A DNA stretch of 64,000 nt from a virus (lineage: Duplodnaviria > Caudoviricetes): IMG/VR virus record IMGVR_UViG_3300035675_000001; one strand, given 5' to 3'. Below the pieces are notes generated by a model. It was not told the origin of the DNA and did not search any database. It was given only the letters and a program-made list of their open reading frames with translations. Positions 10,595 through 56,745 of the stretch are shown here, in pieces. Position 1 is the first letter of the stretch. Each line of letters starts with the position of its first letter. Both the position numbers and the translations under genes were made by a program.

Positions 10595-12028
10595 ATGGAT
10601 GACGATTTCAAAGAGCTGTATGTGCCGGACGCCGAAGCGATCCCTGAGAAGGATATTCGCTGGTGGTCCCGCTACATGTCGCGGCGGAAGTTCCAGACGG
10701 AAGCCGAAGCCAGGGAGGAGATTTTTCGCATCCTCCAGCACAACGACACGCAGAGCTGGGCGCACATCTTCGGCCCGCAGGGCGAGCCTAAGAACCGCTG
10801 GGAAGCCGACAACATGCCCCTTTACCAAAACAAATGGGGGCACTGGAAGGTTGGCCGTCCCCTCAGCCACTACCGCCGCCTGGAGCTGCCGGGCGACGCA
10901 GAGGAGCGCGAGCGCCAGAAACAGGTCCAGCAGATTCTCCGGCAGCACCAGCTTCGGGAATACCTCTCGAACAACACCAGCGATTTCTCTGACGGCACCA
11001 ACGGCGAGCCGTCCGCCCAAGCCTCGTTCGCGGGCGATGGCGGCACCAATGTCGGCCTGCCGGACTACAAGTATGCGGAGCGCAAGGAGCGCAGGCACGC
11101 CAAGCTGCGTGCGCTCATCAAACGCCGCGATCCCACGCACCGGTCCAACGTGGACTGGGATGTCCGGGCGCGGGCCGGTATGCGCGAGAGCGAGGAAGAA
11201 GACATGATGAAGGAAGTCTCGGAGCCGCCGCCCACGCTCCAGGCTGTCCCTACCCATCGCACCGAGGAATACCTCGTCACCCGCTACGACGGCCAACACC
11301 TGGGCGCAATTTTCCTGGAGCCGGAGGAGCACATGCCGAAGGTTCCGGTCCTGCTCAAGCTCCATCAGATGTATCCCTGGGTCGCCTGGTGGGGGATGGA
11401 GACCGCCCGCTTCAAGACCAAGGAGCAGGCCGTGGCCCACCTGGTAGCGATTGCCAAGGGCGAGTTCCCCGACAAGCACCACCCTGACCGCCAAGGCCGG
11501 GCCTACATGCAGTCGATGAGGAACCGGGCGCTGGGTGAGATGCCCAGGGAAGTCGAGGAAGCCCACGAGGAGCTGGCCGACGCCGGAGCTTACCCGGACA
11601 ATCCCTTCTCGACCTGGATGACGCTCGACCACACCAACCCGGACGGTGAAGCCGTCTATGAGGCCACACACGAAGTGCGCGTCAACGGCGCTCCCTACTA
11701 TGCCAGCGCCAAGATCACTATTGGCCTGCCGGGCGGACACTGCTGGCTTTACACGCACTGGGCCTTTGAAGATTTCGACCGCTGGACCGACATCCCTCGC
11801 GGCGGCATGAACCAGCAGCCCTACTGCCCGACGATGGAGGACTTGCAGGCGCTCTCCGATGACCTCCAAGCGTTCCTCAAGTCCGTCGAGACCAGGGACG
11901 AGGAGCAGGTTCGTGCGGCCAACGACCTGATCGGATCGAAGATTTACAGCGGCAGGCGCACCGGCTACAGCAAAGGCGTAGTCGAATCCCATGCCGCCGA
12001 GATTGTGAAGAACCTGTTGGAAGCGTAA
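10595..12028 (+). CDS. Tagged polyprotein A (477 aa)
   Basis: Starts MDDDFKEL, has internal MRE|SEEEDMMKEV, and ends AAEIVKNLLEA. Confidence 0.65.
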   Translation: MDDDFKELYVPDAEAIPEKDIRWWSRYMSRRKFQTEAEAREEIFRILQHNDTQSWAHIFGPQGEPKNRWEADNMPLYQNKWGHWKVGRPLSHYRRLELPGDAEERERQKQVQQILRQHQLREYLSNNTSDFSDGTNGEPSAQASFAGDGGTNVGLPDYKYAERKERRHAKLRALIKRRDPTHRSNVDWDVRARAGMRESEEEDMMKEVSEPPPTLQAVPTHRTEEYLVTRYDGQHLGAIFLEPEEHMPKVPVLLKLHQMYPWVAWWGMETARFKTKEQAVAHLVAIAKGEFPDKHHPDRQGRAYMQSMRNRALGEMPREVEEAHEELADAGAYPDNPFSTWMTLDHTNPDGEAVYEATHEVRVNGAPYYASAKITIGLPGGHCWLYTHWAFEDFDRWTDIPRGGMNQQPYCPTMEDLQALSDDLQAFLKSVETRDEEQVRAANDLIGSKIYSGRRTGYSKGVVESHAAEIVKNLLEA

Positions 12029-12043
12029 TCTGTTCTATTGAGT

Positions 12044-14747: not shown

Positions 14748-14765
14748 GCCTATAAGAACGGAGCG

Positions 14766-15371
14766 TCATTCGATGTGATACTTGCGCTTCATCTCCCGTT
14801 TCCAGTTGGCAAACTCACCCGCCAACTTGTCTTCGTCAACAATGAGCGCGTTCTCCAGATCACCGATGGCCATGACGAGGGTTGTGAAGGTCAGCCCCTC
14901 GACGGTGCGGACGATGAAGAAGCGGTGCTTGCCGGGCACAACCTCCGAAAGATTGCGCTGCTCCAGCCACTCGACCAGCTCCATGTGGAGGTCGTCGAAA
15001 ATCTCCTGCTCCTCGTCGTCCCCTGGCGGGCCGTAAAGCTCCTCCAGGACGGTCTGATGGGCGTCCCACTCGAACCACATCATCACGTCGGCCTCGCGGT
15101 CGTCCGGGCGGAAGGCGGCGTCGAGGCCGCTGTCGCTCCAGGGGTAAGAAGTCGGTCGGCTTTGGACCTTGAACTCGTAGCCCCGGTCCCACAGCGACTC
15201 CATTTCCGCGAACTCCCTGGGGGCCTTGCGCTGCCAGTCTTGCTCATGGCTATTCCAGAGGGAGTCCTTCATCCTGATCTCGACAGTAACCGGCTGATAC
15301 CCGGCGTCTTTCACCAGGTCTTCGTCATCGGTTTCGAGCAAAAACCGGAGGATTGGCTGCGTGCGGTCCAC
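14766..15371 (-). CDS. Tagged protein B (201 aa; GTG start at 15371)
   Basis: MDRTQPILRFLLE|TDDEDLVKDAG carries the same leader and tag as the polyproteins. Divergent from the terminase gene. Confidence 0.6.
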   Translation of the reverse strand: MDRTQPILRFLLETDDEDLVKDAGYQPVTVEIRMKDSLWNSHEQDWQRKAPREFAEMESLWDRGYEFKVQSRPTSYPWSDSGLDAAFRPDDREADVMMWFEWDAHQTVLEELYGPPGDDEEQEIFDDLHMELVEWLEQRNLSEVVPGKHRFFIVRTVEGLTFTTLVMAIGDLENALIVDEDKLAGEFANWKREMKRKYHIE

Positions 15372-15393
15372 AGTTCGTTCTTCCTTGATAGGT

Positions 15394-17457: not shown

Positions 17458-17476
17458 AATCCGTTCTATTGGGAGT

Positions 17477-17869: not shown

Positions 17870-17984
17870 TCTCCGAGGACCGAATCCTCCAGATCAGCAA
17901 TGACATCTCGGAGGACATGTGTTCGGCCAAGGCCAGTGAACTGGTCGAGGTCGTTAAGTATTTCAGAGATGAGTTCGATGACCT

Positions 17985-19142: not shown

Positions 19143-19183
19143 GATTTCCACGGGCGGAGTGCGTTCGTCCTGGTAGTTATGAC

Positions 19184-19543
19184 ATGGCAGATAATGAGCC
19201 AGCAGCAGTCCGTGTTGAGCTGGTGCCGTATTCGATGTTTGCGGCAACCCCGGCTTATCAGATTGACGCTGAACTCGATACCGGCAAAGAGTCGGTAATC
19301 GTGTTCGGCCTCAAGCGCGACCCTGTTGTCCCCGATCCCACCGACATCCTGTTCACCGTTCCGACCGGAGGCGGCGGACGGTTTGACCTCATCTCGCAAA
19401 AGTTCTACGGCACCCCGGAGCTATGGTGGGCCATCTCGCGCTGCAATGTTGACCTCGACCCGATGATCGGGCCAGAGGTTGGCAGCATCATCCGGGTTCC
19501 AACCCGCCTGCGACTGGCCAGCCTGGGGGTGCTGAATGTCTGA
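19184..19543 (+). CDS. Baseplate/tail-X LysM-like protein (T4 gp53-like)
   Basis: GRFDLISQKFYGTPELWWAI...N....PEVGSIIRVP. Confidence 0.75.
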   Translation: MADNEPAAVRVELVPYSMFAATPAYQIDAELDTGKESVIVFGLKRDPVVPDPTDILFTVPTGGGGRFDLISQKFYGTPELWWAISRCNVDLDPMIGPEVGSIIRVPTRLRLASLGVLNV

Positions 19544-21284
19544 GGCCCTGGCCATCCTCGCCCGCGTGCTGGAGTCCGACGAAGATTTCGTCGGCAAGGA
19601 CATGGACATCCACATGCCCTACGGCATCGGCAGCCGCGTGAAGGTCACCGATGGTGACTACACCGGCGAGCCAGGCACGGTCATGGGCATGGGGAACCTG
19701 GGCAACAACGTGCGCGGCTTTTGGGTCCACCTGGACGGGGCTGACGACGACATCAACAGCGCGATCCTCTACCCCGCCGACCGCCTGGCTCCCGCCCACG
19801 ACCTCAAGTATCCTCCCGGCATCCTCTGGCGCATCACCCAGGGCGAGTTCGCCGGGCGCAAGGCCATCCTGACCGGCACCAACAAGGCCGGAAGCATGTT
19901 CGTTCACGTCGAGGGGCACCCGGACGACTGGCAGATGATTTCCATGCGCCAGAACGAGTTGGAGCCGCTGGCCGAATCCGAGCTGATGGGCGACGAGGAC
20001 GACGTAAAAGCTGTGGCGGGCTACGTCACGCCGGAGTTGCAGCTCGACACCGATCCCAAGTCGAAGAACCAGCAGACTTTTGTTTACGCCTACGGCGAGT
20101 TCATTGGGACCGTTTCCGAAGACCTGGCCACGCCGGGCGACTGGGTGGTGACCTTCGTGCCCAACAAGGGCTACATCTGGAAGCGCGGGTTCAGGACCAG
20201 AGAGGATGCCGCAATGGCGATCTGGCAGGACCGCATCGGCATGAAGAAGCTGCGCGAGGAGGTCGAAGATGACGAGGGCTTCAAGGACGTTTACAGCGGC
20301 GAATACCCGACGTTCAACTTCCTGGTGAAGCGCGATCCGCAGGGCCGGGAGCAGTGGGGCAGCGGGGTGTGGAATGTTTACATCGACGGCTCAGAGCTGG
20401 GCATGGAGCACGTCCCCCACATGTGGATCGGCGAGATCGAAGCCGTGCGCGGCGAGGGCAACCAGCTCCAAGGCTGGCGCATCAGCAACCTGCCCTACCC
20501 GTCATCGCCCAAAGCCATCCCTGAGCTTTTTCCGCAGCAGCTCGACGCCGCCCGCTACATTTGGGGCGAGCGCCTGCGCCCGCGCAACGAGGCCAAGGAC
20601 CATCAGCGAGTTCGCCGCCTGGTCGGCAAGCTGATTGACGAAGCCGATGAGGACGAGCCTGACTTCAAGGAGTTCGCCTTCGATCCCGTGGCCAGCGCCG
20701 TAAGCGCCCTGGAGGGAGCCGGGTTCAAGATCGAGCGAGCCGACCGTGAGGGCGACGACATCTTCCTGCGGTTCACCTGGCCCGCGTTCAACGCCGTCGC
20801 CTACATCAATGGGGCCAAGCGGGCGCTGGAAGCCATCCGGCCTTTCATCAACGTGAGGCACGGCGACTACCGCGTGGACCGGGAGCTGGACGAGCAGGGC
20901 CAGAAGATCGCCCGCATGTTCATCCGCCGAAAGGATGACCAGGCACCCTGGCTCTGGAAGATCGAGCGCATCCCCAACTATTACGACCACAATGTCGCGC
21001 CGGGGGACGTGGTGAACACGTCGGCGGAATACAAGATTTTCTTCAATGGCCAGGAAGCAGGACTGTTCTTGGCACCGAACTATGACGTAGCGGAGCGCGT
21101 CCGGGAGGAGATGGCCCAACTGCACAAGGTGCATGGGTTTTACCCTCCTGGATGGGACGCGCCCGGTAACGCATGGGGCAAGGGCCACGCCATTGAGTGG
21201 TGGAGACGCAACCGTAAAAAGTTAGGCAACGTCGCCAGAAGCAACGAACCGTTTTTTGATCGGGGCCTCCTGGCGACCCGATAA
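19536..21284 (+). CDS. Tagged polyprotein C (582 aa) with KOW/SH3-like repeats
   Basis: MSEALAILARVLE|SDEDFVGKDM and three more tags. IGSRVKVTDGDYTGEPGTV and WRITQGEFAGRKAIL are KOW-like. Confidence 0.7.
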   Translation: MSEALAILARVLESDEDFVGKDMDIHMPYGIGSRVKVTDGDYTGEPGTVMGMGNLGNNVRGFWVHLDGADDDINSAILYPADRLAPAHDLKYPPGILWRITQGEFAGRKAILTGTNKAGSMFVHVEGHPDDWQMISMRQNELEPLAESELMGDEDDVKAVAGYVTPELQLDTDPKSKNQQTFVYAYGEFIGTVSEDLATPGDWVVTFVPNKGYIWKRGFRTREDAAMAIWQDRIGMKKLREEVEDDEGFKDVYSGEYPTFNFLVKRDPQGREQWGSGVWNVYIDGSELGMEHVPHMWIGEIEAVRGEGNQLQGWRISNLPYPSSPKAIPELFPQQLDAARYIWGERLRPRNEAKDHQRVRRLVGKLIDEADEDEPDFKEFAFDPVASAVSALEGAGFKIERADREGDDIFLRFTWPAFNAVAYINGAKRALEAIRPFINVRHGDYRVDRELDEQGQKIARMFIRRKDDQAPWLWKIERIPNYYDHNVAPGDVVNTSAEYKIFFNGQEAGLFLAPNYDVAERVREEMAQLHKVHGFYPPGWDAPGNAWGKGHAIEWWRRNRKKLGNVARSNEPFFDRGLLATR

Positions 21285-21435: not shown

Positions 21436-21917
21436 GCTTTTTAACTGAACGCAAGATGGCGAACACGCTGGACGTGCCCATCGCCCTGCCCGCCACGGAA
21501 CTCAAGATGTCCGATTGGCTGGTGATCGCCACGATCAAGCTGACCGCACCTTCGCGCCTCGCGGTGCGGATGCTCCACTTCAACTTCATCAGCTCGACCG
21601 TGGACTTGCAGAACATCAAAACGGTCAACTACATCAACTCCAGCATGGGCTTGTGCTACGTGGGGCTGTTCCTGAACTACACGAACGGCGACCCCTCGCA
21701 GCTCACCAAGCTCGACAAGGTGAGCGCCAGCAGCCTGGGCGTCTTCACCCGCCTTGGCAATCCGCTCATCATCAGCACGCCCGGCACCTACACCTGGCTG
21801 GCCGTCAACAACGTCCAATACAGCAACCAGAACCCCTACCTCACGGTGACGGACAGCGCGGACTTCCGCGTGAGTTGCACCGGCCAGTGGCGCATTGAAC
21901 TCGACCCGACGCAATGA
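21432..21917 (+). CDS. Putative structural beta-protein (paralog of 25927-26352)
   Basis: TLDVPIALPATEL.....IATIKL ... LGV ... PGTYTW.AVNN shared with its paralog. Confidence 0.55.
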   Translation: MSFLTERKMANTLDVPIALPATELKMSDWLVIATIKLTAPSRLAVRMLHFNFISSTVDLQNIKTVNYINSSMGLCYVGLFLNYTNGDPSQLTKLDKVSASSLGVFTRLGNPLIISTPGTYTWLAVNNVQYSNQNPYLTVTDSADFRVSCTGQWRIELDPTQ

Positions 21918-24900
21918 AGGAAGTGGATGACATCCTGGCCGCGCTCCTGGAGGATGAGGATGACCTCAGCTCCAAGGACGTGTTCTTCCCCAATGACCCC
22001 AAGGCTGTGGACTTCTCCGAGCCGCTGGCGGGCAATGAGGCGAAGCTGCGCCGGGTGTTCACCTGGCTCACGCGCCTGGGGATGACGCCCGCCTTTGGCA
22101 GCGTGCCCATCGGCTGGTATCAACAGGCCCAGTTCGAGGCCATCGACCGGCTGCGGGCGCTGGCCAAGCTCAAGGGCATTGACCTGCGCTGGGTCAAAAA
22201 GAAGAACGAGCACATCCTGGCCTATCACCAGGACCGCTGGGTGCCCATCGCCAAGTTCGGCTGGCGAGATGAGCTGGTCGCCGAAGCGATGGACGACGAC
22301 TTCGACATGAAGGAAGTCACGGGCGGGGCCTTCGATGAGCTGGCCCAGCTTGTAGCCAGCGGCGTCCTGGACCTGAGCGGCAAGGTCGAGCGTGGCAGTT
22401 CCCGCTACGTCCACGAGCGCAGCACCACCTTCGAGCTTTACAACAGCTACAACTGGCCGGACGACATGCCGCAGGAGGAGCGCGAGGCCGAAGAAGTCCG
22501 CATCGACAAGCTCATCAGCGAGCTGGAGAAGTATGTCAGCGAGCGCATCGTTGCCTGGAACCACAAGATTTACCAGGAGTTGGAGAAGGACTACGAGTGG
22601 GCTTACGAGGACGAGAACATCGCCGACACTCTGGAAGCAAACGACTACCACTTCACCGAGGATGGTGAGCGGGATGATGAAGGCCCATTCACCTACCAGC
22701 AACTCCAGCCCGACGCCCAAGAGGCTGCCCGCCAGTGGTGGAAGGACGCCAACGAGCAGGACAACTGGTGGAGCGAATCGACCATTGCCGAGTGGAAGTG
22801 GCTGCTCGACCAGAAGGGATTCCTTGGCGTGGAGATCGCCTTTAGCGGCTTCTGGAGCCAGGGCGATGGCGCTTCCTTCGAGGCCAAGCGGTTTGACGCG
22901 GCCCAGTTCTTCAAGGGCGTCGATCCCCTCGACTTCCCGGAGCAGGACCGCGAGCAGATGAGCGAGTCCCAGGAAGATGACATCCATCCCAAAGACCTGG
23001 CGACCACCAACCCGGAGGACGTGGCTTCCGAAATCCTCCGCCTGGTCACCGCCATTCCGGGCGTGACCGACGTGACCATGACCAGGGGCGCGGTCAACCC
23101 GGAGCACGTCATCATCAACGGCAAGATCAACCTCGACCACTGGGACGCGGGCTACGCCATCGACAAGGCGATCTTCCCGGTCATGGAGAACCCTGCCGTC
23201 GAGATTACTCGCCACACCGCCTTCGCCGCCCCGATGGACAAATATCCGCGTGGCTTCGCCGTGGTGGTCAAGCCCGCGCTGCGCGAGTCACTGCTGGAGC
23301 GTTACGGCGGGGCCGAGAAAGAGCGCCAGATTTTCTACCACGGCACGACCTCCACCCTGCTGCCCAAGATTCTCGCCCAGGGCTTGATTCCCAATCCCAA
23401 GGTCCGCTCCTGGTCCGACGATCCGCACAAGGGCCTCATCCAGCCCTCGCGCCAAAGCCTGGAGGGCATCTACGTCACGACCAACCTGATGACTGCCGTC
23501 TCCGCCGCTGGCCGCGTGGCCCGGCGCGACAAGGCCCACCGGCTGATCGTGGTGATGGAGCTGCAACCCCGCGACCTCCTGGCCGACGAGGATGACATCG
23601 GCGGCACGATCAACGCACTGGCCAACCACATCAGCGACCACGTTTACTCGCACATCTGGCCCTACTTCGCCGAAGTCTATCGAGACCGAATGCGCTACGC
23701 GGAGGAATACGCGCCCCGCGCCGACCAGGCCAAGGCCAAATGGGTGGACGACGCCGCCAAGCAGATGCTCTACAAGTTCGGCCAGAACAGGCCGGAGCTG
23801 GAGACCCGCCTGCGCGAGCTGCTGGCCAACGAGGGCTACCGCATCATGCTGACCCGCATGGCCTCCTATGCGGGCGACTGGGAGAAGGGCTACTGGCACA
23901 GCGAATGGCGGCACCTGTTTGGGACCGACGAGGACGCTCCTCCGGTGCCGGACAAGAACCAGGCCGAAGCAGACTTTCTCGCTTTCAAGGACAAGCTGAC
24001 GCGCACGCTCAAGGGCAAAGCCCGCCCGCTGATGCAGAAGGACTGGAAGCTCAACGTCAGTGGCCGGTCCATGAAGCCCATCGGTTTCGACGGCAGCGAC
24101 CGCATCATCTGCATCGTCGAGGAGATCGACCACTCCGGGCCGGAGTATTACACCGGCATGATCGTCCACTACGGCAAGCCGCCCGAACAGCTCATCAAGG
24201 ACTGGACCGAATCCCACGGCCCCCTGGACAAGCCAGACAGCATTGTTTACAAAAACGCGCAGCAGGAAGCTTTCGAGACGCACGGCCAGGCTTTGGCCCG
24301 CACCGGCGAGTGGGGCACCCAGGCGGCAGGCGGCGTCTATATCGCCCAGGACACCGGGCGCGTGCTCATCGGCTTTCGCTCCAGCGATGTTCTCAAGCCG
24401 CACACCTGGGGCACCTTCGGCGGAGCAATGGACGAAGGCGAAGACGCGGCCACGGCTGCCCAGCGCGAGATGAAGGAGGAGACCGGCTACAGCGGGCCGA
24501 TGGAGATGAAGCTCGTTTACGTTTTCGAGAAGGGCACGTTCAAGTATCACAACTTCGCCGTCATCGTGCCCGCCGAGTTCAAGCCGCGCCTCAACTGGGA
24601 GAACGATGACGCCGAGTGGTTCGAGCCGGGCAAGTGGCCAAGCCCGCTTCACCCTGGCATGGATCAGCTTCTTTCGCGCCTGGGCGCGGTCCAGGAGTCC
24701 GAGGATGACGACTTCGACGTGAAAGAAGTGGCCAAGGTCGATGACGGAATCTTCGTCAACTACACCTACGACTCGCACGACCCCGATGGCCAATACGAGC
24801 AGGTGTGGGAAGACGAGGGACCGTTCGTGTCCATGCAGAGCGCCTACGAGTGGGCGCAGAAAAACCTGTCCCGCGACAAGATCGCCGAGCTGAACATCAC

Positions 24901-29976: not shown

Positions 29977-30674
29977 TGTGCCGGGATCAAATTCCAGTCT
30001 GCATCCAGTCCTGCTCGAAGGAGTTCGCCTTCGAGCGGCGAATGGCTTGCCTGGACACTTGGGTTCCGACGTTATCGTCGAAATTCTACCCCATCTTCCT
30101 GGTCGGCAACCCCGACCAGGAAGTTGATTACATCTTCAAGGAGCTAGGCCCTGGCTGCGGCAATTACCTCAGCGTCCGCTTCTGCGACGAGTGGTATGCG
30201 CTCTCCGGCAAGATGAGGCGCTGGTGGGTGTGGGCGCTGGAGCACTTCGACGCGCCCTGGTTTTTCAAGTGCGACGACGACAGCTACGTCAACGGCAGGC
30301 TGTTCAACGATTTCCCCTTTGAGCGTTACGACTACACCGGCCATTTCTACACCGAAACTTACGCCTGGAAGCAGAAACGTCCGCTGGTTGGCAGCGAGAT
30401 TCAATACAAGGCCCACGGCGCGGGCTACAGCCTTTCCCGGCGCTGCGCCAAGCTCGTGTCCGAGAAGCTGGGCGACTGGGAGCCTGGCGGCGAAGACGTG
30501 AGCACGGCCAGGACCATCTTCAACGGCATCCCCGACGTGGTGATCCACGACATGTGGGAACCGCGAGTCGCGCCCTGGGCCAGACTGAACATGCAGCCCG
30601 ACTGGTTGGTCGGCCACGAGATTCGGGGCATGGACATGATGCGCCAGGTTCACCGGAAGGTAGTTAATCCGTGA
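29976..30674 (+). CDS. GT31/Fringe-like glycosyltransferase (galactosyltransferase family)
   Basis: WFFKCDDDSYVN (DDD motif), YTG, GAGYSLSR, GEDV and C-terminal H. Confidence 0.8.
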   Translation: MCRDQIPVCIQSCSKEFAFERRMACLDTWVPTLSSKFYPIFLVGNPDQEVDYIFKELGPGCGNYLSVRFCDEWYALSGKMRRWWVWALEHFDAPWFFKCDDDSYVNGRLFNDFPFERYDYTGHFYTETYAWKQKRPLVGSEIQYKAHGAGYSLSRRCAKLVSEKLGDWEPGGEDVSTARTIFNGIPDVVIHDMWEPRVAPWARLNMQPDWLVGHEIRGMDMMRQVHRKVVNP

Positions 30675-32140
30675 GACTAAAGACGACCTCGCTCAAGCGC
30701 GGCCTGCTCCTCTATCACGGCACCAGCTCGCCGGATTTTGACGAGCGGGCTGGCAGCCTCGCTTTCCCTGCCTGGTTCAGCGAGAAGGAGCGCGTCGCCC
30801 GCTACTTCGTCAACTGGCATGGTGAGCCGGAGCCTTACCCCTACAACGAGGAGCTGCCAAGCTCCGCCCGCATTATTGTTTACAAAGTCTCTCAGCCCAT
30901 CAAGGTGCTCCTCATCCCGGACGGCGAGACGATGGATTACATCCGCGACGAGATGGCGATGGCCGACGACGTTGAAACCCTGGCCGACTGGTGCTGCTCC
31001 AACGGCTACAACGGCTGGGTCATCCCCAACAACTACCCCGCCGAGGGCGGCAGCGACATCATGCTCTGCCGAGACGAGGGCCTGGAGTATGTTGAGACCA
31101 AGGCCCTCAACGAGAGCGCCGAAGACTTCGACAGCAAGGATGTCAGCGAGCCGGACCCGGTGGGGCTGGTTCACAGCATCATCCAGAACGCCGGGATCAC
31201 CGACATCAACGTGAAGCGCACAGGCCGGTCCATGATATTCGACGGCATCCTGGGCCGGTATCCCACGCACACCAGGGACGGCACCAAGATCGAGGTCGCC
31301 GACCTGTGCTACGCCCAGCAAATCTCCTGGAAGATCGCGGAGCTGCCCCAGGTCGAGAAGTGTAACGCGACCACCAACCGGCTGCCGGACGGGCGCAAGA
31401 CGGCTCACTTTTGGGTGCTCTGGCGCGAGGAGACCAACGCGCAAATCCAGATGGAGGCAGAAGAAATTGTAAACAATCTCATCGAGGCCAACAGCGCCCA
31501 CCTGGAGATGGCCACGCGAGCAGCCCGCTGGATTTACCAGCACGACCCTGACTTCTTCGAGGGCGGCTGCGGCGATGTCAACCACGTCATCAAGAAGTTC
31601 CTGGAGACCCAGCAGGTGCCCGTTCGCCTGCTCACCGGCTATGCCGTCTTCGCCCGCGAGAAGGTGCCTCATGCCTGGCTAGAGATTGACGGCCAACAGT
31701 TTGACCCGGTTTACACGCTCCAGCGCATCGTGCCCAAGAGCTACGTGCCCAAGCCAATGGACCTGGGCGACTTCGGGGTGGACGAGGAAAGCGGCTACCA
31801 CGACGAATTAGTCCAGCAGCTCCAGCAGGCCGTGACCCTGGGCGAGAGCGAGGAGGAAGACGACTTCAAGGATGCCTGGAAGGAGCCGGACGCCTGGGAA
31901 TGGATGCGCGACACCTTGCCCGGCCTGGGCTTCCAGTATGAAGACATGGGCATCAAACACTGGTGGAAGAAGGCCAAAGGCGGCAAGCGCGTGCGGGTAT
32001 CCGGCGCAACCAACCCAGGCTGCGTCAACATCTACCGGGAATACATGAACTGGCACATGCAGTGGACCGATGAGGATGCAGAAGTCCAGGTGCCGGTAGA
32101 GCGAGCGTTGGACGTGATCCGCCGCTACGGAGCACTGTAG
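30671..32140 (+). CDS. Tagged polyprotein E (489 aa) with ART-like and papain/transglutaminase-like domains
   Basis: LLYHGTS...PAWFS...A.YF...GYNGW, then LNE|SAEDFDSKDV, GGC...PHAWLEIDGQQFDP and LGE|SEEEDDFKDA. Confidence 0.7.
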   Translation: MRLKTTSLKRGLLLYHGTSSPDFDERAGSLAFPAWFSEKERVARYFVNWHGEPEPYPYNEELPSSARIIVYKVSQPIKVLLIPDGETMDYIRDEMAMADDVETLADWCCSNGYNGWVIPNNYPAEGGSDIMLCRDEGLEYVETKALNESAEDFDSKDVSEPDPVGLVHSIIQNAGITDINVKRTGRSMIFDGILGRYPTHTRDGTKIEVADLCYAQQISWKIAELPQVEKCNATTNRLPDGRKTAHFWVLWREETNAQIQMEAEEIVNNLIEANSAHLEMATRAARWIYQHDPDFFEGGCGDVNHVIKKFLETQQVPVRLLTGYAVFAREKVPHAWLEIDGQQFDPVYTLQRIVPKSYVPKPMDLGDFGVDEESGYHDELVQQLQQAVTLGESEEEDDFKDAWKEPDAWEWMRDTLPGLGFQYEDMGIKHWWKKAKGGKRVRVSGATNPGCVNIYREYMNWHMQWTDEDAEVQVPVERALDVIRRYGAL

Positions 32141-47190: not shown

Positions 47191-47193
47191 GGC

Positions 47194-50286: not shown

Positions 50287-50289
50287 AGC

Positions 50290-53200
50290 TCAGCTCTTGA
50301 CGCGACCCGTCTCAACCAGGAACGCCCTGGCCTGGTCCGCATCAAATTGAATGTCATTCAGCTTGTAGCCTGACTCGGCCAGGCTCTTGATCTCCTGGTC
50401 GCTGGCCATGAGCAGCCAGCCCGTGGCGTCGAAGCCGCTCGTGGCCGCAACCGTGGGCAGCGCCTTGGTCTCCGCGACCACAATGCCCTCGTTCATGATC
50501 TGGCCGGAGAAGTGGCTCCAATCCAGGACGGCACCGCAGGCACCGCACTCCTGCATATCGAGGTCGTCGGCGTCGCCCGCCTCGATCCCGTTGAAGCCCG
50601 CCTTGAGGTAGCTGAAATCCGTCATCAGGTCGCCCTGGTGCCCACAGGCCGGGCAGCGCACGATGTGCCGGAGGTCGGGCGTCTTCTGGATGTAGATGAG
50701 GCGCAGCTCCGGGACCAGCTCCTTCCAGTCGGCCTCCTCGGACTCGGCAACTTTGTTTACAATTCTGACATCGTTGATCTGATCCCACGGCCACTCCGGG
50801 TGAATCTTCTCACCATAGGAGATGGCGTAATCCATCGGATCATCCAATGGGTAGTATTCTCCCGACAGTTGCTTGTTGAGCGCCTTCCAGTTGGGCCAGC
50901 GCCGGATCACGTCCCAAGGAATTTCCAAGGTCTCGATCCTGGGGCCGTGCTCGCGGGTGTCGTCATCGAACACGAACTGGACTACCGGCAGGATGTCCTG
51001 CGAAGTGGTCAAGTCCTTTCCTCCGATTTCGTCTTCGGCTGACTCTTGAACCTGGTCGGGCGGAATGAAGACTACATCCACCAACCAGTCCCAGTCATCC
51101 TTGTCCACGTCCCGGCGCGTGCGGCGAGCATAGTCGATCACCCTGTCCTGGACATCACCGCCCTCCTCGAAGCTGTTCTCCACTTCGGCCAGGCTGTTCA
51201 CTCCCAGCTCGCTGTAGGGCACCGTCAGCCAAACACTGTAGCCCCGCTCGCCTGCGCCGAAATCGAAACCCAAACGGAACTGCGGCGGCGGGTCGATATT
51301 CACCACGTCCTTGTGGCCGATGTCCTCCTCGCTCTCGTCCACGTCATGGCCATGAACATCGGCGATGGCCCCCTCGTTGTGGACCCGCACCCGGCGCATC
51401 AGCGACTCGATGGCCTCATTCTTCATGTCGTCGTAGTAGCCGCCCGGCTGCTTGAAGTCCTCGGCGCTGTGGTAGGAGCAACCGCCCAACCAGGCTTCGC
51501 CGCTGAACATCTTGCCGTTGGGCGCGGTCCACCGAGCAATAACGTGAGCGGAGCACCAGCCCCACTCGTTGCCGTTCTCGATCTGCTCGCGTGCCCAGGC
51601 CGCATCCTCCGGCATGGGGAAGTGATCCTCCGGCGTTTCGTCTTCCGGCTCAGCAACCAGGACGACCTCGATCTCCTCCGGCGTGGGCGGCTCGATGTAA
51701 TCGCTGGGCGGGGTGACCTGCTTCCAGTCGGCTTCGTCGTCTTCCTCTTTGAGCAGAGCCTCGACCACATCGTTCGGGTCGTAGTCGCCGTGGCCCAGGA
51801 CATAGCCAGGCTCCTCAACGTGCTCGACCTCGTAGTCGTGGTTCAGGTGGTGCCGCTTGAGGAAGTTGAAGCGGTCCTTCATGTCGAACTCCTCGACGTA
51901 AACCTCGTCCGCCTTGTTGAACAAACTCGACGTGTAGGCAAAGTTCAACGCCTTCTCCAGCGTGGGCATGACGTTGGTGTGATACCACTGGTCGTCATCA
52001 GGCTGGAGACCATGCCAGTTCACTCGGAACCAGATGCGTTGCTCATCCGCCACGTCCTTCCAGTCAGGGTCTTCCTCGCTCTCCTGGTGGTAAGCGCCCG
52101 GAGAGTCCAGGCTGTTGACAACCCGCAGCACTTCCACCGAAGGGTTCTTGGCCGAGAAGATCGCCGCCGCTTCCTCCGCATTGCGAGCGTGGACGCCGTA
52201 ATGGCCCTGACCCACCGTGGACTTGTAATAGACGATGAACAGGTTGGGCTTGCCAGAGTGCGCGGCATCCTTCCAATCCAGGTCATCCTCAGACTCGCGC
52301 ACCGGCCCCCACACATTCTCCGGCCAGTCGGCATTGCCGCCAGCAGCCCTGATCTTTCGGATCAGCTCCTCCGTGAACCGCTTCGGGTTGGTGTAGGTGT
52401 CGTGGTAGATCGGGAAATATCCCTCCTGACCACGGCGCTGATACACGACCAGGTGCCACTGACGCTCGCGCACCGTATCCTCGTCGATCAGAGGCTCGGT
52501 GTGCTCGACGGTCATCATGATGTTGGCCTCCGGCTTCACATCATCGCGCCAGGTGAGCATGTGCCACTTGTCGTCCATGCGGAAGCCCAGGCCCGCCATC
52601 CACTCCAGCAGGCTGTCATCGGAAGCCACGTCCTTCCAATCAGGATCGTCCTCGCTCTCATTGGCGATGGGCGTGAGCTTGAACACGAACTCGTGGTCCG
52701 CGCTGCCGCCAGGTATCATCTGGACCGCTACCTGGTTCTTGAAGGCATACTCCGCCGCGAACGTCACGGCTTTCAACGCCTGCTCATCCTTCACGCTCTG
52801 CTCCAGGTTCGGCTCATTGAACTCGCCGTTGAAGCGCACGTCCCAGGTCCGGTCGGTCGCGTCCGGCTCAGACAAGCCGATGTCCAGCCAACCGAAGGTC
52901 TCCAGGGAACTGATGAACGCCTGCGGGTCATACTGCTTGGCGCGACCGCCTGCCACGCGCTCGTCCCCATTGCTCAGGACCGTTTCCTTCCAGTCAGCCT
53001 CATCGCTCTCCTCCAGGCCGTTCTCGTTCGGCTCGTTCGGATTGCGGTAGGTATCCACAATCTTCCAGCCAGAGTTGTTGTCGAGCGGAACCTCGCGGAT
53101 CAGGCTGCCGTCCGGGTTCACGAGCACGATGGCCTCGGTGCCGAACGGACAATCGTTCAGGTCGATGACGCCCTCGTTGATGAAGTCGCCCAGCTTGAAG

Positions 53201-56200
53201 ACCGTAGCCTGGTCGAACTCCTCTATCCAATCTCCTACTTCATCGGAGAAGTAATGCTTCACATACGGAGTGCCTGGCCGATCCATCAGGGTGAACGGGC
53301 ACATGAACTTCACCCACTCGCTCTCGCCCAGGACCAGCTCTTTCCACGAACCCTCGTCGTCCAGGCTCTCGTGCCAGGAATAGACCGGCTTCATGCTGGT
53401 GATGTGGCGTGCGCGGGTGTCCGGCCAGCGGAAGTTCTCGAACCTGGCGCGGGCTTCTTCCTCGCTCGCTGCGGTCAGCGTGATCTCGAACGGCATCCAC
53501 TTGCGGCCACTGCGGGACACGTAGTTGACCTTGAATCCAACCGGCACAGCCAGCCCGGCATCCTTCATGTCGAAGTCATCCTCGGACTCTTTGACCAGGA
53601 AGCTGCGAGCCTGGCTGCCATCAAAGGGCCGGTAGGTCACGAAGCTTGCGTCGTCCTCCAGGTCCAGACCTTGGACCTCCTCCGGCTTCACGCCCGCCAG
53701 CTTGGGCAGGTGTTCAACTCCGGCCTGGAGCGTGTCCATGTGAATGATGCCGTCGTAGCCCTGGGCCTTGGCGGCTTCGACGTAAGCGGGATTGTCAACA
53801 ATCGCATACGTGTCGATCTCCACGCCGTCGAGCAGATACTCCAGAATCTCCATGCGCCTGCTCTCGATGGCCGCTGGGTCTTCCTCCATCTCGGCCAGGT
53901 CGTCGATGGCGTCCTGGAGGTCTCCCCAATCGCTGATGCAGGTGATGTCGTTGGCCGAGCAGGTGAAGTCCACCGAGTATTCCAGCTTGGTCAGGTGATA
54001 CTGGTAGTTGCCGATCAGCTCGCTCAGGTCATCCCACGAGAAGGTGTTGTTGGCGGGCGCATTGCTAAAGTCCCAGCGCAGGCGCTCGATGGCTTGCCAG
54101 AGCGTGGTCTGCGTCCCCAGGTCGCGCAGGTCCAGCGGCTTCTTCATGCTCAGGCGATACTTGCCCACGTTCGCGCCGGGCCGGAACTCCGGCTGGCCAA
54201 ACAGCTCGTCCCTGGTCGCCGCGAACACGCTGGCGATGTGCGGGCTGGTCGTAAAGCTGGGCGTGCTGCGGCCCTGGCGGGTAACGAACTTGCCCGGCTT
54301 GGGCACCTTCTTCATCCCCCGATAGACCGGCAGCGGATTGCCCTCCGGGTCCGTGATGTCGCCCTCGGCCTCGGCCAGAGCTTCCTCGGTCTGCTCCGGC
54401 TCGTTCTTGAAATCCATGATGGTGTTGTCCTGGTCATCCTTGAGCCGAAGCTTGTCGGTCTGACACTTGGCCATCATCCATTCCCACTGAGCGCCGGTGG
54501 GCGTGCCGCCGTCGATCAACATGCTGTCGCCGGGCTGGATCGCCACGCGCATGTAGCCCCGCGCATACATGGCCCGATAGACCTTGCCCTGCATCGTCCA
54601 ATACTCGCGCTCCACAGCGGAGGGCGGCATGGTGATGCCCAGCTTCCTGGCCGCGTAGTCCAGGTGGTTCGCACCCGCATACTCCGGCTGGCCGTTGCGC
54701 GTGAGCCAGATGTTGACGTGGCCGGTGACCTCCTGGATCACAGACTCACCCAGGCCACGACCGCCATAATACCACCAGTCGTAAACCTGCTGCTGCCAGT
54801 CTTCGTATTGGTCCGGGTCTTCGGGCGGCTCGCCAAACTGCTCGATGGCCCGCGCCATCATTTCCTGCTCGTCCTCATCGCGCTTGGCATACTCCGCGTC
54901 GCGCCACTGCTCATACTCTTTGCGCCACTGCTCGCGTTCAGCTTCCCTGGCCGGACGCCCGCGCTCCCACTCCTCCTCGTCTTTCTTGCGCTGCTGCGGG
55001 GACCGGTAACGCTTCCAGGCATCCAGGGCGTAGCTCAAGGATTTCTCCTTGTCGCCGCGTGGATTGTAAAGCGAGGCCCGGCCTGCTCGCGCCCGGAGAG
55101 TGTCGAGGCGCTGGGCCAGAGCTGGGTTCTTGGCTGCCGCGTGCGGGCACAGCCAGGTTTTGCACGCCAGCGGCTTGTCAGCCTTGCAGCCCTGGGGCGA
55201 CCAATGCTCGCAGCCCTTGCAGCAGAGGGTGTCCATATCGACACCGCCGCCATACTTGGCCTGAGCCAGTGGGTCAGAGTAGATGCCCTCGCGGCTCCCC
55301 AGGCAGGTGACATGGCCCGTCTTGGTGTCGATCTGACAGGGCTTGTGTTTGGCCAGCGCACCGGCTGCCTGGCCATAGAGCTTATTGTAAACTTTTTCCA
55401 ACCGCTCGCGGTCAACGGGCTTGGCCTCCTGGATGGCCACGCGCAGGATGGACTCCAGCATCTCCGGCTCCATCTCCGAGTCGCCCAGGTCCACGGTGAT
55501 CTCCACCAGGTCGTGGTTGTGAATCCAGACCTTGGCGTTCTCAGGCAGCGCATTCTGGATCAGCGTGCGCCAGCCGCCGTAGTAGTCGCCCGCCTCGGCC
55601 CCAGGGTAGGGGATGACCGTGTAGATCGAGAGCTGGTCGTGGCCGGTGGTCGGGTTGCGCTTACGCGAGTCGTAGGCATAGACGTGCTGCTTGTCGATCT
55701 GCACCGGGTGCGCGAGGTCCGGCCACGCGGTCGTGCGGGTAGCCAGGTCGCCTTTGACGTAAAACTTGAAGCCCGCTCGCTTGAGCTGATCCATGACCTC
55801 CAACGCGGCCACGCGGTCCAGCTCGCCCAGGTGCGGGCGGACCAGCTCCTTCCAATCCTCGCTGTCCTCCGGCTCCTCCAACGACTCCATCTCGCCGTAA
55901 ACAATTCCGCGCAAAAGCTTCTGGTAGGGCATCCAGTCGATGGCTGCCATCTTCTTGGAATACTTGTCCTCGCATTTGCCCTCCTCCTCGCCGGGCACCA
56001 ACTCGCGGCACTGCTTGGGCCGCTGCTCGTAGCCAAGCTGGCAGCCGCCCGGTCCCTTGAGTTCGCACCGCTCATACTCGCCGCTGCCGGTCATGAAGCT
56101 GCGCCGGGCGCGGGGCCGGACCATCATCACGTCCTCCTCGGCATCCGGGTTCTGGCCGGTGGGGTCGCCATACCAGGAGTCGATCTCGTAGCGGTCGCTG

Positions 56201-56745
56201 TCGAGCGCGGCCTTGATCTTCTCGCGCATGACGTTCACGTCGGGCGCTCCCCAGTCCTCCGGGCTGGTCATGCCTGGATACCAGGAGCAGCACTTGCCGC
56301 CGCACTTGGCACAGAGGCCGGTGTTCTGCGCCTCGTCGATGAACCGCTTGGCCATCTGGCTGTAAGGCTTGCCGATGACATAGCCCTTGCGCTGGAGCTT
56401 GGCCGGGTAGAAGCCTGGCAGCCGATTCGGACAAATGGTATTGACCGCCTGAGCCTGTTGCTCCCAGGTCGGGGTCTCGTTCTCGCCGAAGCCACGCATC
56501 CGGGTCCAGCCGACCCAGCTATGGGCCTTGCTCAGCTTGCCGTTGCGGGTGAAGACCGGGACGATGAAGTGGACGTAGTAGCAGTCGTCGCCGTAGCGGG
56601 AAGGATCGTGGGCGAAGGCGTGCCATTGCTGGAGCTGCGCGAGCTGCGCCGACTCCTCTGGCACCATCGTCAATTCTTTCCAGCCGCCCTCATCTGGCTC
56701 ATCAGCCTCAATGAGTTGTCGGACGATCTTGTCAGCTTCGTTCAC
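50290..56745 (-). CDS. Tagged polyprotein F (2151 aa) with two Cys-cluster domains, an ART-like domain and many small domains
   Basis: MNEADKIVRQLIE|ADE...WKEL and 12 acidic tags in total. CAKCGGKCC...RP.QCR, CCKGC...CKTWLC, VYRG...SFTTS...A...AQGYDGIIH. Confidence 0.8.
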   Translation of the reverse strand: MNEADKIVRQLIEADEPDEGGWKELTMVPEESAQLAQLQQWHAFAHDPSRYGDDCYYVHFIVPVFTRNGKLSKAHSWVGWTRMRGFGENETPTWEQQAQAVNTICPNRLPGFYPAKLQRKGYVIGKPYSQMAKRFIDEAQNTGLCAKCGGKCCSWYPGMTSPEDWGAPDVNVMREKIKAALDSDRYEIDSWYGDPTGQNPDAEEDVMMVRPRARRSFMTGSGEYERCELKGPGGCQLGYEQRPKQCRELVPGEEEGKCEDKYSKKMAAIDWMPYQKLLRGIVYGEMESLEEPEDSEDWKELVRPHLGELDRVAALEVMDQLKRAGFKFYVKGDLATRTTAWPDLAHPVQIDKQHVYAYDSRKRNPTTGHDQLSIYTVIPYPGAEAGDYYGGWRTLIQNALPENAKVWIHNHDLVEITVDLGDSEMEPEMLESILRVAIQEAKPVDRERLEKVYNKLYGQAAGALAKHKPCQIDTKTGHVTCLGSREGIYSDPLAQAKYGGGVDMDTLCCKGCEHWSPQGCKADKPLACKTWLCPHAAAKNPALAQRLDTLRARAGRASLYNPRGDKEKSLSYALDAWKRYRSPQQRKKDEEEWERGRPAREAEREQWRKEYEQWRDAEYAKRDEDEQEMMARAIEQFGEPPEDPDQYEDWQQQVYDWWYYGGRGLGESVIQEVTGHVNIWLTRNGQPEYAGANHLDYAARKLGITMPPSAVEREYWTMQGKVYRAMYARGYMRVAIQPGDSMLIDGGTPTGAQWEWMMAKCQTDKLRLKDDQDNTIMDFKNEPEQTEEALAEAEGDITDPEGNPLPVYRGMKKVPKPGKFVTRQGRSTPSFTTSPHIASVFAATRDELFGQPEFRPGANVGKYRLSMKKPLDLRDLGTQTTLWQAIERLRWDFSNAPANNTFSWDDLSELIGNYQYHLTKLEYSVDFTCSANDITCISDWGDLQDAIDDLAEMEEDPAAIESRRMEILEYLLDGVEIDTYAIVDNPAYVEAAKAQGYDGIIHMDTLQAGVEHLPKLAGVKPEEVQGLDLEDDASFVTYRPFDGSQARSFLVKESEDDFDMKDAGLAVPVGFKVNYVSRSGRKWMPFEITLTAASEEEARARFENFRWPDTRARHITSMKPVYSWHESLDDEGSWKELVLGESEWVKFMCPFTLMDRPGTPYVKHYFSDEVGDWIEEFDQATVFKLGDFINEGVIDLNDCPFGTEAIVLVNPDGSLIREVPLDNNSGWKIVDTYRNPNEPNENGLEESDEADWKETVLSNGDERVAGGRAKQYDPQAFISSLETFGWLDIGLSEPDATDRTWDVRFNGEFNEPNLEQSVKDEQALKAVTFAAEYAFKNQVAVQMIPGGSADHEFVFKLTPIANESEDDPDWKDVASDDSLLEWMAGLGFRMDDKWHMLTWRDDVKPEANIMMTVEHTEPLIDEDTVRERQWHLVVYQRRGQEGYFPIYHDTYTNPKRFTEELIRKIRAAGGNADWPENVWGPVRESEDDLDWKDAAHSGKPNLFIVYYKSTVGQGHYGVHARNAEEAAAIFSAKNPSVEVLRVVNSLDSPGAYHQESEEDPDWKDVADEQRIWFRVNWHGLQPDDDQWYHTNVMPTLEKALNFAYTSSLFNKADEVYVEEFDMKDRFNFLKRHHLNHDYEVEHVEEPGYVLGHGDYDPNDVVEALLKEEDDEADWKQVTPPSDYIEPPTPEEIEVVLVAEPEDETPEDHFPMPEDAAWAREQIENGNEWGWCSAHVIARWTAPNGKMFSGEAWLGGCSYHSAEDFKQPGGYYDDMKNEAIESLMRRVRVHNEGAIADVHGHDVDESEEDIGHKDVVNIDPPPQFRLGFDFGAGERGYSVWLTVPYSELGVNSLAEVENSFEEGGDVQDRVIDYARRTRRDVDKDDWDWLVDVVFIPPDQVQESAEDEIGGKDLTTSQDILPVVQFVFDDDTREHGPRIETLEIPWDVIRRWPNWKALNKQLSGEYYPLDDPMDYAISYGEKIHPEWPWDQINDVRIVNKVAESEEADWKELVPELRLIYIQKTPDLRHIVRCPACGHQGDLMTDFSYLKAGFNGIEAGDADDLDMQECGACGAVLDWSHFSGQIMNEGIVVAETKALPTVAATSGFDATGWLLMASDQEIKSLAESGYKLNDIQFDADQARAFLVETGRVKS

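What the first reader, a model, noticed from the sequence alone, without database searches (positions are those of the whole stretch)
12000..56745. Second motif: an amphipathic (A/V)-x-x-I-(V/L)-x-x-L-(L/I)-E helix resembling a capsid-targeting sequence
Seen: N-termini VDDILAALLE (21914), ADKIVRQLIE (56745), ALAILARVLE (19536) and TQPILRFLLE (15371); internal AEEIVNNLIE (30671 gene), VRRLVGKLIDE (19536 gene) and NDVVEALLKE (50290 gene); and the C-terminal AAEIVKNLLEA of the 10595 gene. Each ends at the putative cleavage Glu. Established: T4 internal proteins carry a ~10-aa N-terminal capsid-targeting sequence removed at Glu by gp21. Inference: an analogous scaffold-binding leader that loads the polyproteins into the prohead. 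It can occur at the N-terminus, internally or at the C-terminus.
Basis: partly seen in the sequence, partly recalled or inferred. Interest (0 to 1): 0.7.

Follow-up and report, generated by a model that had tools for sequence, protein, structure and literature searches.

The report
Removable capsid-address helix on phage cargo
Four unrelated late proteins of this uncultured T4-type jumbo phage, among them two giant multi-enzyme proteins, begin with the same 13-residue helix ending in Leu-Leu/Ile-Glu. It is most likely a cut-off address tag that loads them into the phage head, like the capsid-targeting sequence of phage T4, but no experiment has shown this.

Summary
The motif is real and is a discrete signal. 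Four window genes (starts 21914+, 19536+, 56745-, 15371-) begin with a 13-residue peptide. It has Ile at position 7, Leu/Val at 8 and 11, Leu/Ile at 12, and Glu exactly at 13, followed by an acidic tag.

- A matrix built only from leaders of other phages ranks these four among the five best 10-mers of the window proteome.
- Two related jumbo-phage genomes give 13 and 17 hits against 0 in reversed decoys. Start-to-Glu distance peaks at 13.
- The leader sits in front of different first domains. In one relative it has no acidic tag.
- Fifty internal tag sites share only a hydrophobic P3, so the helix is not merely part of the cut site.
- A C-terminal form (Glu|Ser, helix, stop) is invariant in four homologues of gene 10595 and recurs in two other phages.
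- Both relatives carry a T4-type S77 protease-scaffold fusion next to a gp23-type capsid gene, flanked in one by leader genes.

Best reading (about 0.6): a removable capsid-targeting peptide, a new variant of the T4 CTS. Packaging and cleavage are untested. This scan noted similar leaders in at least eight other uncultured phages.

The parts
21914..21952 (+). 13-aa N-terminal leader MKEVDDILAALLE of the 1338-aa NUDIX-containing multi-domain protein (gene 21914-25930). Followed by the tag DEDDLSSKDV.
   Evidence: (21.7 bits, rank 1). Orthologue P0003 keeps MSEIDDILKVLLE.
19536..19574 (+). 13-aa N-terminal leader MSEALAILARVLE of the 582-aa four-module protein (gene 19536-21284). Followed by SDEDFVGKDM.
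   Evidence: In the 59%-identical orthologue P0001 the core ILARVLESDED is unchanged.
56707..56745 (-). 13-aa N-terminal leader (GTG start) NEADKIVRQLIE of the 2151-aa protein (gene 50290-56745). Followed by ADEPDEGGWKEL.
   Evidence: 21.2 bits. GTAGTTA lies 4 nt before the GTG.
15333..15371 (-). 13-aa N-terminal leader (GTG start) DRTQPILRFLLE of a 201-aa protein (gene 14766-15371, minus strand). Followed by TDDEDLVKDA.
   Evidence: The 201-aa product is called by independent gene callers. 11.8 bits, rank 5.
11987..12025 (+). C-terminal form: SHAAEIVKNLLEA at the end of gene 10595-12028, preceded by a cut-site-like VVE|S.
   Evidence: rank 4; 17.8 bits. E-S...A..IVK.LLEA-stop is invariant in four homologues of 316-477 aa.
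31457..31486 (+). Internal leader-like helix AEEIVNNLIE (residues 263-272 of gene 30671-32140), with a Met two codons upstream and no acidic tag after it. Status ambiguous.
   Evidence: 19.8 bits with the non-window PSSM. Conserved as ASEIVNILVE and AREIVNYLLE, and it travels with the downstream domain.
20610..20642 (+). VRRLVGKLIDE before an internal tag of gene 19536. An ordinary P-side of a tag site, not the leader motif.
   Evidence: Extra residue before Glu. Not among the profile hits. Conserved in the orthologue.
51745..51774 (-). NDVVEALLKE before an internal tag of gene 50290-56745. An ordinary P-side of a tag site, not the leader motif.
   Evidence: Leader PSSM score -0.1 bits.
57359..57748 (-). 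129-aa protein with the fold of the N-terminal half of a T4 gp21 (S77) prohead protease, 0.6 kb upstream of the 2151-aa leader-bearing gene.
   Evidence: phrog_207 head maturation protease, E 2.6e-5. Atlas structure match to PF03420 clusters, TM 0.83 by query.
56750..56756 (-). GTAGTTA word 4 nt before the start of the 2151-aa gene. The same word at 19173-19179 (+) heads the operon 19184/19536/21914.
   Evidence: The same arrangement precedes a leader gene of the relative G001. The late-promoter reading comes from an earlier scan note.

Best explanation
The motif is a short, removable address peptide. It is a 13-residue amphipathic helix with consensus M-x-x-A-D-x-I-V-x-R-L-L-E.

Inferred mechanism:
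1. The hydrophobic face of the helix (positions 4, 7, 8, 11, 12) docks the newly made protein to the assembling prohead core or to the inner capsid surface.
2. The phage's T4-type S77 prohead protease then cuts after Glu13. Leu11-x-Glu13 is the T4 L/I-x-E motif. The cut frees the cargo inside the head.
3. In the giant proteins the same protease would also cut at each internal [V/L/I/M]-x-E|[S/A]-acidic-tag site, releasing single domains.
4. The same helix can sit at the C-terminus behind a Glu|Ser site. There too one cut removes it.

Shown from sequence: the motif, its fixed length, its independence from cargo and from the tag, its conservation, its use on both termini, and the protease and capsid gene content of relatives.

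Inferred only: binding, packaging, cleavage and ejection.
For: 1. Fixed register. The four window leaders have Glu at residue 13. So do P0004, P0005, P0007, P0012, P0015, P0016, P0017, P0019 and P0022. The start-to-Glu distance peaks at 13 in the window, G001 and G002.
2. Portability. Homologues of gene 21914 put the leader before different first modules. In the gene 10595 family the helix is C-terminal in four members and N-terminal in P0033.
3. Separate from the cut site. Fifty internal tag sites have a median leader score of -6.9 bits, and only P3 is enriched in hydrophobic residues (0.72). In leaders P7, P6, P3 and P2 are hydrophobic in 0.86 to 1.0 of cases. The helical hydrophobic moment is 0.48-0.81 for leaders against about 0.33 for internal sites.
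4. Separate from the acidic tag. G002 has 17 hits of 13 bits or more against 0 in the decoy, and many have non-acidic sequence after the Glu.
5. Head context. G001 and G002 encode a Peptidase_S77 protease fused to a helical scaffold-like tail, directly followed by a Gp23-type capsid protein. Five G002 leader genes flank this pair. One leader protein carries a phage lysozyme domain. The window holds a gp21-fold protein next to its largest leader gene.
6. GTAGTTA lies 4-5 nt before leader-gene starts in the window and in G001.
7. AlphaFold2 on a 12-row alignment predicts a helix at residues 3-13 and coil afterwards.
8. T4 precedent. The CTS MKTYQEFIAE was read from the T4 record. Residues 4 and 7 serve targeting, residues 8 and 10 serve processing, and gp21 cuts after L/I-x-E (PMC9026906).
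Against: - There are no protein-level data: no virion proteome, no observed cleavage, no cultured relative. No match was found in GenBank phages.
That part rests on two relatives.
- There is no detectable sequence homology to the T4 CTS, only shared pattern and position.
- Several tag-bearing proteins have no leader and start directly with the tag (MDDDFKEL...). The leader is therefore not required for every presumed cargo.
- Some leader genes lie far from head genes.
- Leaders could share length through common descent rather than through selection on length.
Confidence: 0.6

Rival explanations
1. The helix is only an extended substrate-recognition or docking element for the protease. It ensures efficient removal of the first residues or activation of the cargo. 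Targeting to the head is done by something else, such as the acidic tags.
For: The helix ends in the cleavage motif. The tags are far more numerous and also stand at the N-termini of leaderless proteins. T4 CTS residues 8 and 10 serve processing.
Against: Fifty internal sites do without the helix. In the C-terminal form the presumed cut (E|S) lies upstream of the helix, not at its LLE. G002 leaders often lack the tag. There is one leader per polypeptide but many tags.
Confidence: 0.15
2. The helix is a docking or oligomerisation peptide for another destination. Candidates are a chaperone, another virion part such as tail or baseplate, a cytoplasmic assembly, or pairing among the cargo proteins themselves.
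For: Amphipathic helices are generic interaction modules. Many leader genes, including those in the window, lie among non-head genes such as fibre, helicase and methylase genes. No binding partner was identified.
Against: The L-L/I-E ending fits the head protease's specificity, and an E|S site accompanies the C-terminal copies. Leader genes cluster around the protease and capsid genes in G002. There is a close functional parallel in T4.
Confidence: 0.15
3. There is no function as a peptide. The match would be chance, composition, shared ancestry of a duplicated N-terminal exon-like piece, or a constraint on the 5' end of near-leaderless mRNAs.
For: The promoter word lies only 4-5 nt before some starts, so the 5' coding region might carry RNA-level signals.
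Against: There were 0 hits in reversed decoys against 6, 13 and 17 real hits. The leader core stays intact in orthologues of 59% (P0001) and 56% (P0003) identity. The Leu codons of the G001 leaders are CTT, TTG, CTG, CTC and CTA, so the conservation is at the amino-acid level (compare). C-terminal copies cannot be 5' mRNA signals.
Confidence: 0.05

Closest known systems
Capsid targeting sequence (CTS) of phage T4 internal proteins IPI, IPII, IPIII and the propeptides of Alt, removed by prohead protease gp21 (Mullaney and Black 1996; review PMC9026906)
   Same: A short N-terminal peptide shared by unrelated non-essential proteins. It has hydrophobic residues at positions 4, 7 and 8, and it ends in L/I-x-E, the gp21 cut site. 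The lineage has an S77 protease and a gp23-type capsid protein. T4 Alt and gp21 also have C-terminal propeptides.
   Different: It is 13 residues long rather than 10, and has no sequence homology to MKTYQEFIAE. A second hydrophobic pair (11, 12) adds one helical turn. In the window it is followed by a conserved acidic tag. It heads proteins of up to 2151 residues built of many domains with internal tag sites. Relatives carry 8 to more than 15 leader genes per genome. There is a recurrent C-terminal form. Function is untested.
Polyvalent proteins of phages and conjugative elements (Iyer, Burroughs, Anand, de Souza, Aravind 2017, PMC5512222)
   Same: They are predicted to be packaged in the head and delivered with the DNA.
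   Different: A text search of that paper found neither 'linker' nor 'N-terminal signal', so it appears to describe no shared leader or repeated cleavable linker. It proposes self-processing by embedded peptidase domains. Here an address helix and T4-type cut sites are the organising features.
N-terminal propeptides of head and ejection proteins of giant phages phiKZ, 201phi2-1 and SPN3US, removed by gp21-like proteases (PMC10052503, PMC9026906)
   Same: Cleavage after Glu by a diverged gp21 homologue. Many internal or ejected proteins are processed.
   Different: Those propeptides are mostly long (about 110-250 residues). The cut motif is S/A-X-E in phiKZ and A-X-E in SPN3US. No short shared leader has been reported for them.
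N-terminal packaging signal of phage P1 DarB (PMC9024508) and cargo-loading peptides of encapsulins
   Same: Short terminal peptides that suffice to bring foreign proteins into an HK97-fold shell. From my own knowledge, encapsulin peptides work at either terminus.
   Different: There is no consensus among P1 Dar proteins and no protease removal is known. Encapsulins are not viruses, and their peptides differ in sequence. The resemblance is functional only.

Membership tests
T4-type capsid targeting sequence | Short (about 10-19 aa) peptide at the extreme N-terminus of the precursor | tested here: met
   13 residues in 4 of 4 window genes. Start codons are supported by independent gene calls and by the upstream GTAGTTA word.
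T4-type capsid targeting sequence | Ends in the prohead protease motif L/I-x-E | tested here: met
   Positions 11-13 read L-L-E, L-I-E, V-L-E and L-L-E. P3 is Leu in 20 of 22 and P1 is Glu in 22 of 22 leaders from other phages.
T4-type capsid targeting sequence | Shared by several otherwise unrelated proteins of one phage | tested here: met
   Four window proteins carry it. Pfam and PHROGs assign the three that were run together no common family, and the 201-aa one matches no family. Pairwise similarity among the four was not tested directly. At least 8 proteins carry it in G001 and at least 15 in G002.
T4-type capsid targeting sequence | Phage encodes a gp21 (Peptidase S77) prohead protease and a T4-type head | tested here: inconclusive
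   Met in relatives G001 and G002: PF03420 at 58-67 bits and PF07068 Gp23. In the window itself only a 129-aa gp21-fold protein is present.
T4-type capsid targeting sequence | Sequence homology to the T4 CTS MKTYQEFIAE | tested here: not met
   Only pattern-level likeness, with hydrophobic residues at 4, 7 and 8. One relative protein starts MKRTAQFIAE, which may be coincidence.
T4-type capsid targeting sequence | Sufficient to carry a foreign protein into the head, and removed by the protease in the virion | not testable with these tools
   Needs fusion and packaging experiments, or virion mass spectrometry.
Polyvalent proteins (Iyer et al. 2017) | Several unrelated effector domains in one phage-encoded polypeptide in a virion or late-gene context | tested here: met
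   Gene 21914 has a NUDIX domain plus a module shared with phrog_5162 and at least five internal tag sites. Gene 50290 has about nine tag sites. A late-promoter-like word lies upstream.

The most novel reading that the evidence does not exclude
Uncultured T4-type jumbo phages may use a two-part code for loading their heads.

- One part is a reversible address helix. It can be placed at either end of a protein and is always separated from the cargo by one protease cut. It may imitate the cleavable C-terminal tail of the protease-scaffold fusion (tail motif [L/M]-V-x-R-L-S behind an x-E|S/A site) and so compete for the same site on the capsid protein.
- The other part is a separate acidic tag that marks where giant multi-enzyme proteins are cut into single effectors.

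This would let a phage load and later eject dozens of unrelated proteins, including 2000-residue ones. The leader would then be a sequence-only marker for the injected arsenal of uncultured phages.
Probability: 0.25. Interest if true: 0.75.

Novelty: new variant of a known kind. Interest (0 to 1): 0.6.

Why it matters
If the leader is a capsid address tag, it marks from sequence alone which proteins of uncultured jumbo phages travel inside the particle and enter the host with the DNA. These are the likely anti-defence and host-takeover effectors, most of them of unknown family.

It would also show three things:
- the T4 CTS principle scales from three small internal proteins to many cargos per genome, including giant multi-domain proteins;
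- the tag works from either terminus;
- address (helix) and cutting marks (acidic tags) are separable modules.

A short portable tag with a matching protease is also a practical tool for loading proteins into phage-derived capsids.

Tried and rejected
- The window phage is not in IMG/VR and has no near match in GenBank phages. No whole genome is held. ENA and NCBI contigs of the phage and its relatives could not be searched through handles. Its own protease, scaffold and capsid genes therefore stayed out of reach.
- One look-up by exact protein failed, probably because of a wrong start codon.
- Single-sequence AlphaFold2 of the 201-aa leader protein gave a useless model, mean pLDDT 45.
- Complex prediction of the leader-tag peptide (alignment A5) against the G001 protease-scaffold fusion (A4) gave no verdict, score 0.00. 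It counts neither for nor against binding.
- The search for related loci with leader alignments failed. One alignment had no conserved stretch. In the other, 299 pattern matches were not confirmed by tblastn because the query is too short.
- tblastn of a leader plus tag against GenBank phages found nothing meaningful.
- The conserved module of gene 21914 occurs in cultured Asteriusvirus phages as a stand-alone 203-aa protein without a leader. It is uninformative.
- Four of the 17 profile hits were unrelated repeat proteins: P0011, P0014, P0018 and P0021.
- Register controls in IMG/VR gave small numbers. E13 had 11 hits, 4 of them clade-like. E12 had 6, 1 clade-like. E14 had 5, none clade-like. 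The result is consistent but weak.
- I first dismissed AEEIVNNLIE as a structural helix. I revised this to 'ambiguous' after it scored 19.8 bits with an independent PSSM.
- Likeness of the leader to the scaffold tail is weak: 3.6 bits over P10-P3, and [ILM]V.RL occurs 8 times in 69,003 residues of G001. I kept it as a lead only.
- Rejected readings: Sec/Tat-type signal peptide (the helix is acidic and amphipathic, not hydrophobic) and an mRNA-level signal (synonymous codon variation, C-terminal copies).
Full report
CONTEXT. The window has 60% G+C and codes densely. Most products match no family. Earlier notes of this scan describe it as part of an uncultured wetland T4-like jumbo phage. The same proteins occur on metagenomic contigs of up to 222 kb. 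No whole genome is held.

OBSERVATION. All eight quoted peptides exist. Two coordinates needed correction. TQPILRFLLE is the N-terminus of a minus-strand gene, 14766-15371, with a GTG start at 15371. Independent gene callers also give a 201-aa product there. 56745 is the GTG start of the minus-strand 2151-aa gene.

Each leader is exactly 13 residues long, with Ile7, Leu/Val8, Leu/Val11, Leu/Ile12 and Glu13. An acidic tag ending in K-D/E-hydrophobic follows. Among all candidate start codons of the window, only five give this pattern. Four of them are these gene starts.

IS IT MORE THAN CHANCE?
It was derived from the same data.
- I therefore built matrices from leaders of other phages only. With 11 such leaders, the best 10-mers among 19,855 residues are the four N-termini (ranks 1, 2, 3, 5) and the C-terminus of gene 10595 (rank 4). 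The shuffle top score averages 11.0 bits, with a 95th percentile of 14.3.
- At 13 bits or more, six-frame scans give 6, 13 and 17 hits in the window, G001 and G002. Reversed decoys give 0, 0 and 0. The distance from start codon to Glu peaks at 13 in all three.
- G002 contributed nothing to that matrix.

RELATIVES.
- The 59%-identical orthologue of gene 19536 keeps the leader core ILARVLESDED unchanged. The orthologue of gene 21914 keeps MSEIDDILKVLLE.
- More distant homologues of gene 21914 carry a 13-residue leader in front of different first modules. One of them (P0005) has a different tag dialect.
- A 30-column profile of leader plus tag was searched against 1.84 billion representative proteins. 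It found seven new proteins of 51-1660 residues. All match from residue 1 or 2. Six have Glu13 and one has Glu12.
- A degenerate DNA pattern recovered two IMG/VR jumbo-phage contigs, which I fetched whole: G001 (238 kb) and G002 (211 kb).
- G001 has at least eight leader genes, including a tandem set at 150-155 kb.
- G002 has at least fifteen. Most encode small proteins of 100-260 residues, and many have non-acidic sequence after the Glu.
- The leader is thus older and more widespread than the acidic tag. It does not depend on the tag or on the cargo.

LEADER VERSUS CUT SITE. At 50 internal tag sites in the window and G001, the ten residues before the Glu score a median of -6.9 bits. Only P3 is enriched in hydrophobic residues (0.72). 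In N-terminal leaders P7, P6, P3 and P2 are hydrophobic in 0.86-1.0 of cases. The helical hydrophobic moment is 0.48-0.81 for leaders and about 0.33 for internal sites. AlphaFold2 on a 12-row alignment predicts a helix at residues 3-13 followed by coil. The helix is therefore an N-terminal addition to a general [V/L/I/M]-x-E|[S/A] site.

C-TERMINAL FORM. Gene 10595 ends in VVE|SHAAEIVKNLLEA.
- Four homologues of 316-477 residues differ in their preceding domains but keep E-S, a short spacer and A-x-x-I-V-K-x-L-L-E-A-stop invariant.
- These proteins start directly with the tag (MDDDFKEL...). A further homologue, P0033, instead has an N-terminal leader.
- The same layout recurs independently...MRE|SAQSIVAVLLEDN-stop and ...QEE|SLAESVVSHLLEER-stop in G002, and ...AEFIAGKLLE-stop in another relative.
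- In both orientations a single cut after a Glu would detach the helix from the cargo. This is the strongest sequence argument that the helix is a removable tag and not part of the protease's recognition site.

INTERNAL EXAMPLES.
- VRRLVGKLIDE and NDVVEALLKE have an extra residue before the Glu. NDVVEALLKE scores about zero and VRRLVGKLIDE is not among the listed hits. They are ordinary P-sides of tag sites.
- AEEIVNNLIE scores 19.8 bits with the 22-sequence matrix and has a Met two codons upstream. It is conserved in two relatives and stays with the downstream domain when the upstream context changes. No tag follows it.
- It may be a leader retained after gene fusion, or a structural helix of that domain. 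I leave it open.

HEAD CONTEXT.
- G001 and G002 each encode a Peptidase_S77 domain fused to a long helical, scaffold-like C-terminal part (538 and 564 residues). A Gp23-type major capsid protein follows directly.
- In G002 one leader gene lies just upstream of this pair and four lie just downstream. This recalls the core and internal protein genes of T4.
- One G002 leader protein carries a phage lysozyme domain.
- In the window, a 129-residue protein with the fold of the N-terminal half of gp21 lies 0.6 kb upstream of the 2151-residue leader gene.
- The word GTAGTTA, read by an earlier scan note as a late promoter, lies 4 nt before the GTG of that gene. It also heads the operon containing genes 19536 and 21914, and lies 5 nt before a leader gene of G001.

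COMPARISON WITH WHAT IS KNOWN.
- The T4 CTS, read from the T4 record, is MKTYQEFIAE. According to the review PMC9026906, ten residues suffice. Residues 4 and 7 matter for targeting, residues 8 and 10 for processing, and gp21 cuts after L/I-x-E. Alt and gp21 also have C-terminal propeptides.
- The present leader shares position, size class, hydrophobic positions 4, 7 and 8, and the cleavage ending. It is one helical turn longer and not homologous in sequence.
- Giant phages of the phiKZ/SPN3US group have mostly long propeptides and S/A-x-E sites.
- A text search of the polyvalent-protein paper, which predicts packaging of multi-domain effectors, found neither 'linker' nor 'N-terminal signal'.
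- Full-text searches found no description of such leaders in uncultured large phages.
- Within this scan, similar CTS-like leaders have been noted in at least eight other uncultured phage genomes. The theme is recurrent in the scan's own notes, though I did not test those cases.

MECHANISM AND LIMITS. I read the helix as a removable capsid address tag (confidence about 0.6). Every step after translation is inferred: docking, cutting and release into the head. The receptor is unknown.
- One complex prediction against the protease-scaffold fusion gave no verdict.
- The scaffold's conserved, cleavable-looking C-terminal tail ([L/M]-V-x-R-L-S behind x-E|S/A) resembles the leader core only weakly. 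That is a lead, not evidence.
- Proteins that start directly with the tag show that the leader is not the only route, if the tags are cargo marks at all.
- Rivals: a pure protease-docking element (0.15), a docking helix for another destination (0.15), and no peptide function (0.05).

VERDICT. It is a new variant of a known kind, and is interesting mainly as a sequence marker for packaged effectors of uncultured jumbo phages.

Noticed in passing
window 57359-57748 (-): A 129-aa protein folds like the N-terminal half of a T4 gp21 prohead protease (Atlas TM 0.83 to PF03420 clusters; phrog_207 E 2.6e-5). It belongs to a family of about 130-143-aa viral proteins. Its role beside the largest polyprotein gene is unknown, and whether it keeps catalytic residues was not checked.
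   Followed up: partly
window 10595-10624 (+); G001 56634, 123866(-), 146255(-): Several tag-bearing proteins start directly with the acidic tag (MDDDFKELYV, MALGDFETKDL, MDELDDFKEI, MTDEDLEFKQL). They look like the already-cut form. This is a second N-terminal class without a leader.
   Followed up: partly
L038:14235-15851 (G001) and L056:7484-9178 (G002): The S77 prohead protease is fused to a scaffold-like helical tail of about 350 aa that is rich in [L/V/I]-x-E sites. The gp23-type capsid gene follows directly, and no separate gp22-like gene lies between them. Near the N-terminus is NIVVE|S, recalling the LIE-9 site of T4 gp21.
   Followed up: partly
L011:13671-14024 (+): A 117-aa protein of a 230-kb relative starts MKRTAQFIAEQLLDDD. 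Residues 7-10 (FIAE) are identical to the T4 CTS MKTYQEFIAE. This may be coincidence or a second, T4-like leader class.
   Followed up: no
G001 about 107350-107800 (-), i.e. L032: The orthologue of window gene 30671 (ART-like YHGT domain) is split over two reading frames in G001. This is a frameshift or an assembly error. It also lacks the middle module present in the window.
   Followed up: partly
L007:1481-5926 (+) versus window 15394-17457 (+): The relative's orthologue of the MJ0330_N-domain protein is 1481 aa, with intein and homing-endonuclease domains (Intein_splicing, LAGLIDADG_3, HNH_3). The window copy is 687 aa and intein-free.
   Followed up: no
G001 150478-154757 and G002 131524-133821 (L056:11524-13821): Tandem arrays of three to five small leader-bearing genes, resembling the clustered internal-protein genes of T-even phages. 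In one G001 member (MSAADIIIENLLG...) Gly replaces the Glu.
   Followed up: partly
window 22286-22966 (+) (residues 125-351 of gene 21914): This module (phrog_5162-like) occurs as a stand-alone protein of about 200 aa in 141 GenBank phage records, mostly 350-kb Asteriusvirus coliphages. In the one inspected record (phAPEC6) it sits among small hypothetical genes.
   Followed up: partly
G001 20048-21109 (+) (L028): A protein starts with a 13-aa leader (MGYVQDILNRLLE) and then carries two more leader-like stretches (AGLLLLE, QPTILSRLLE) within 60 residues. It has no acidic tag.
   Followed up: no
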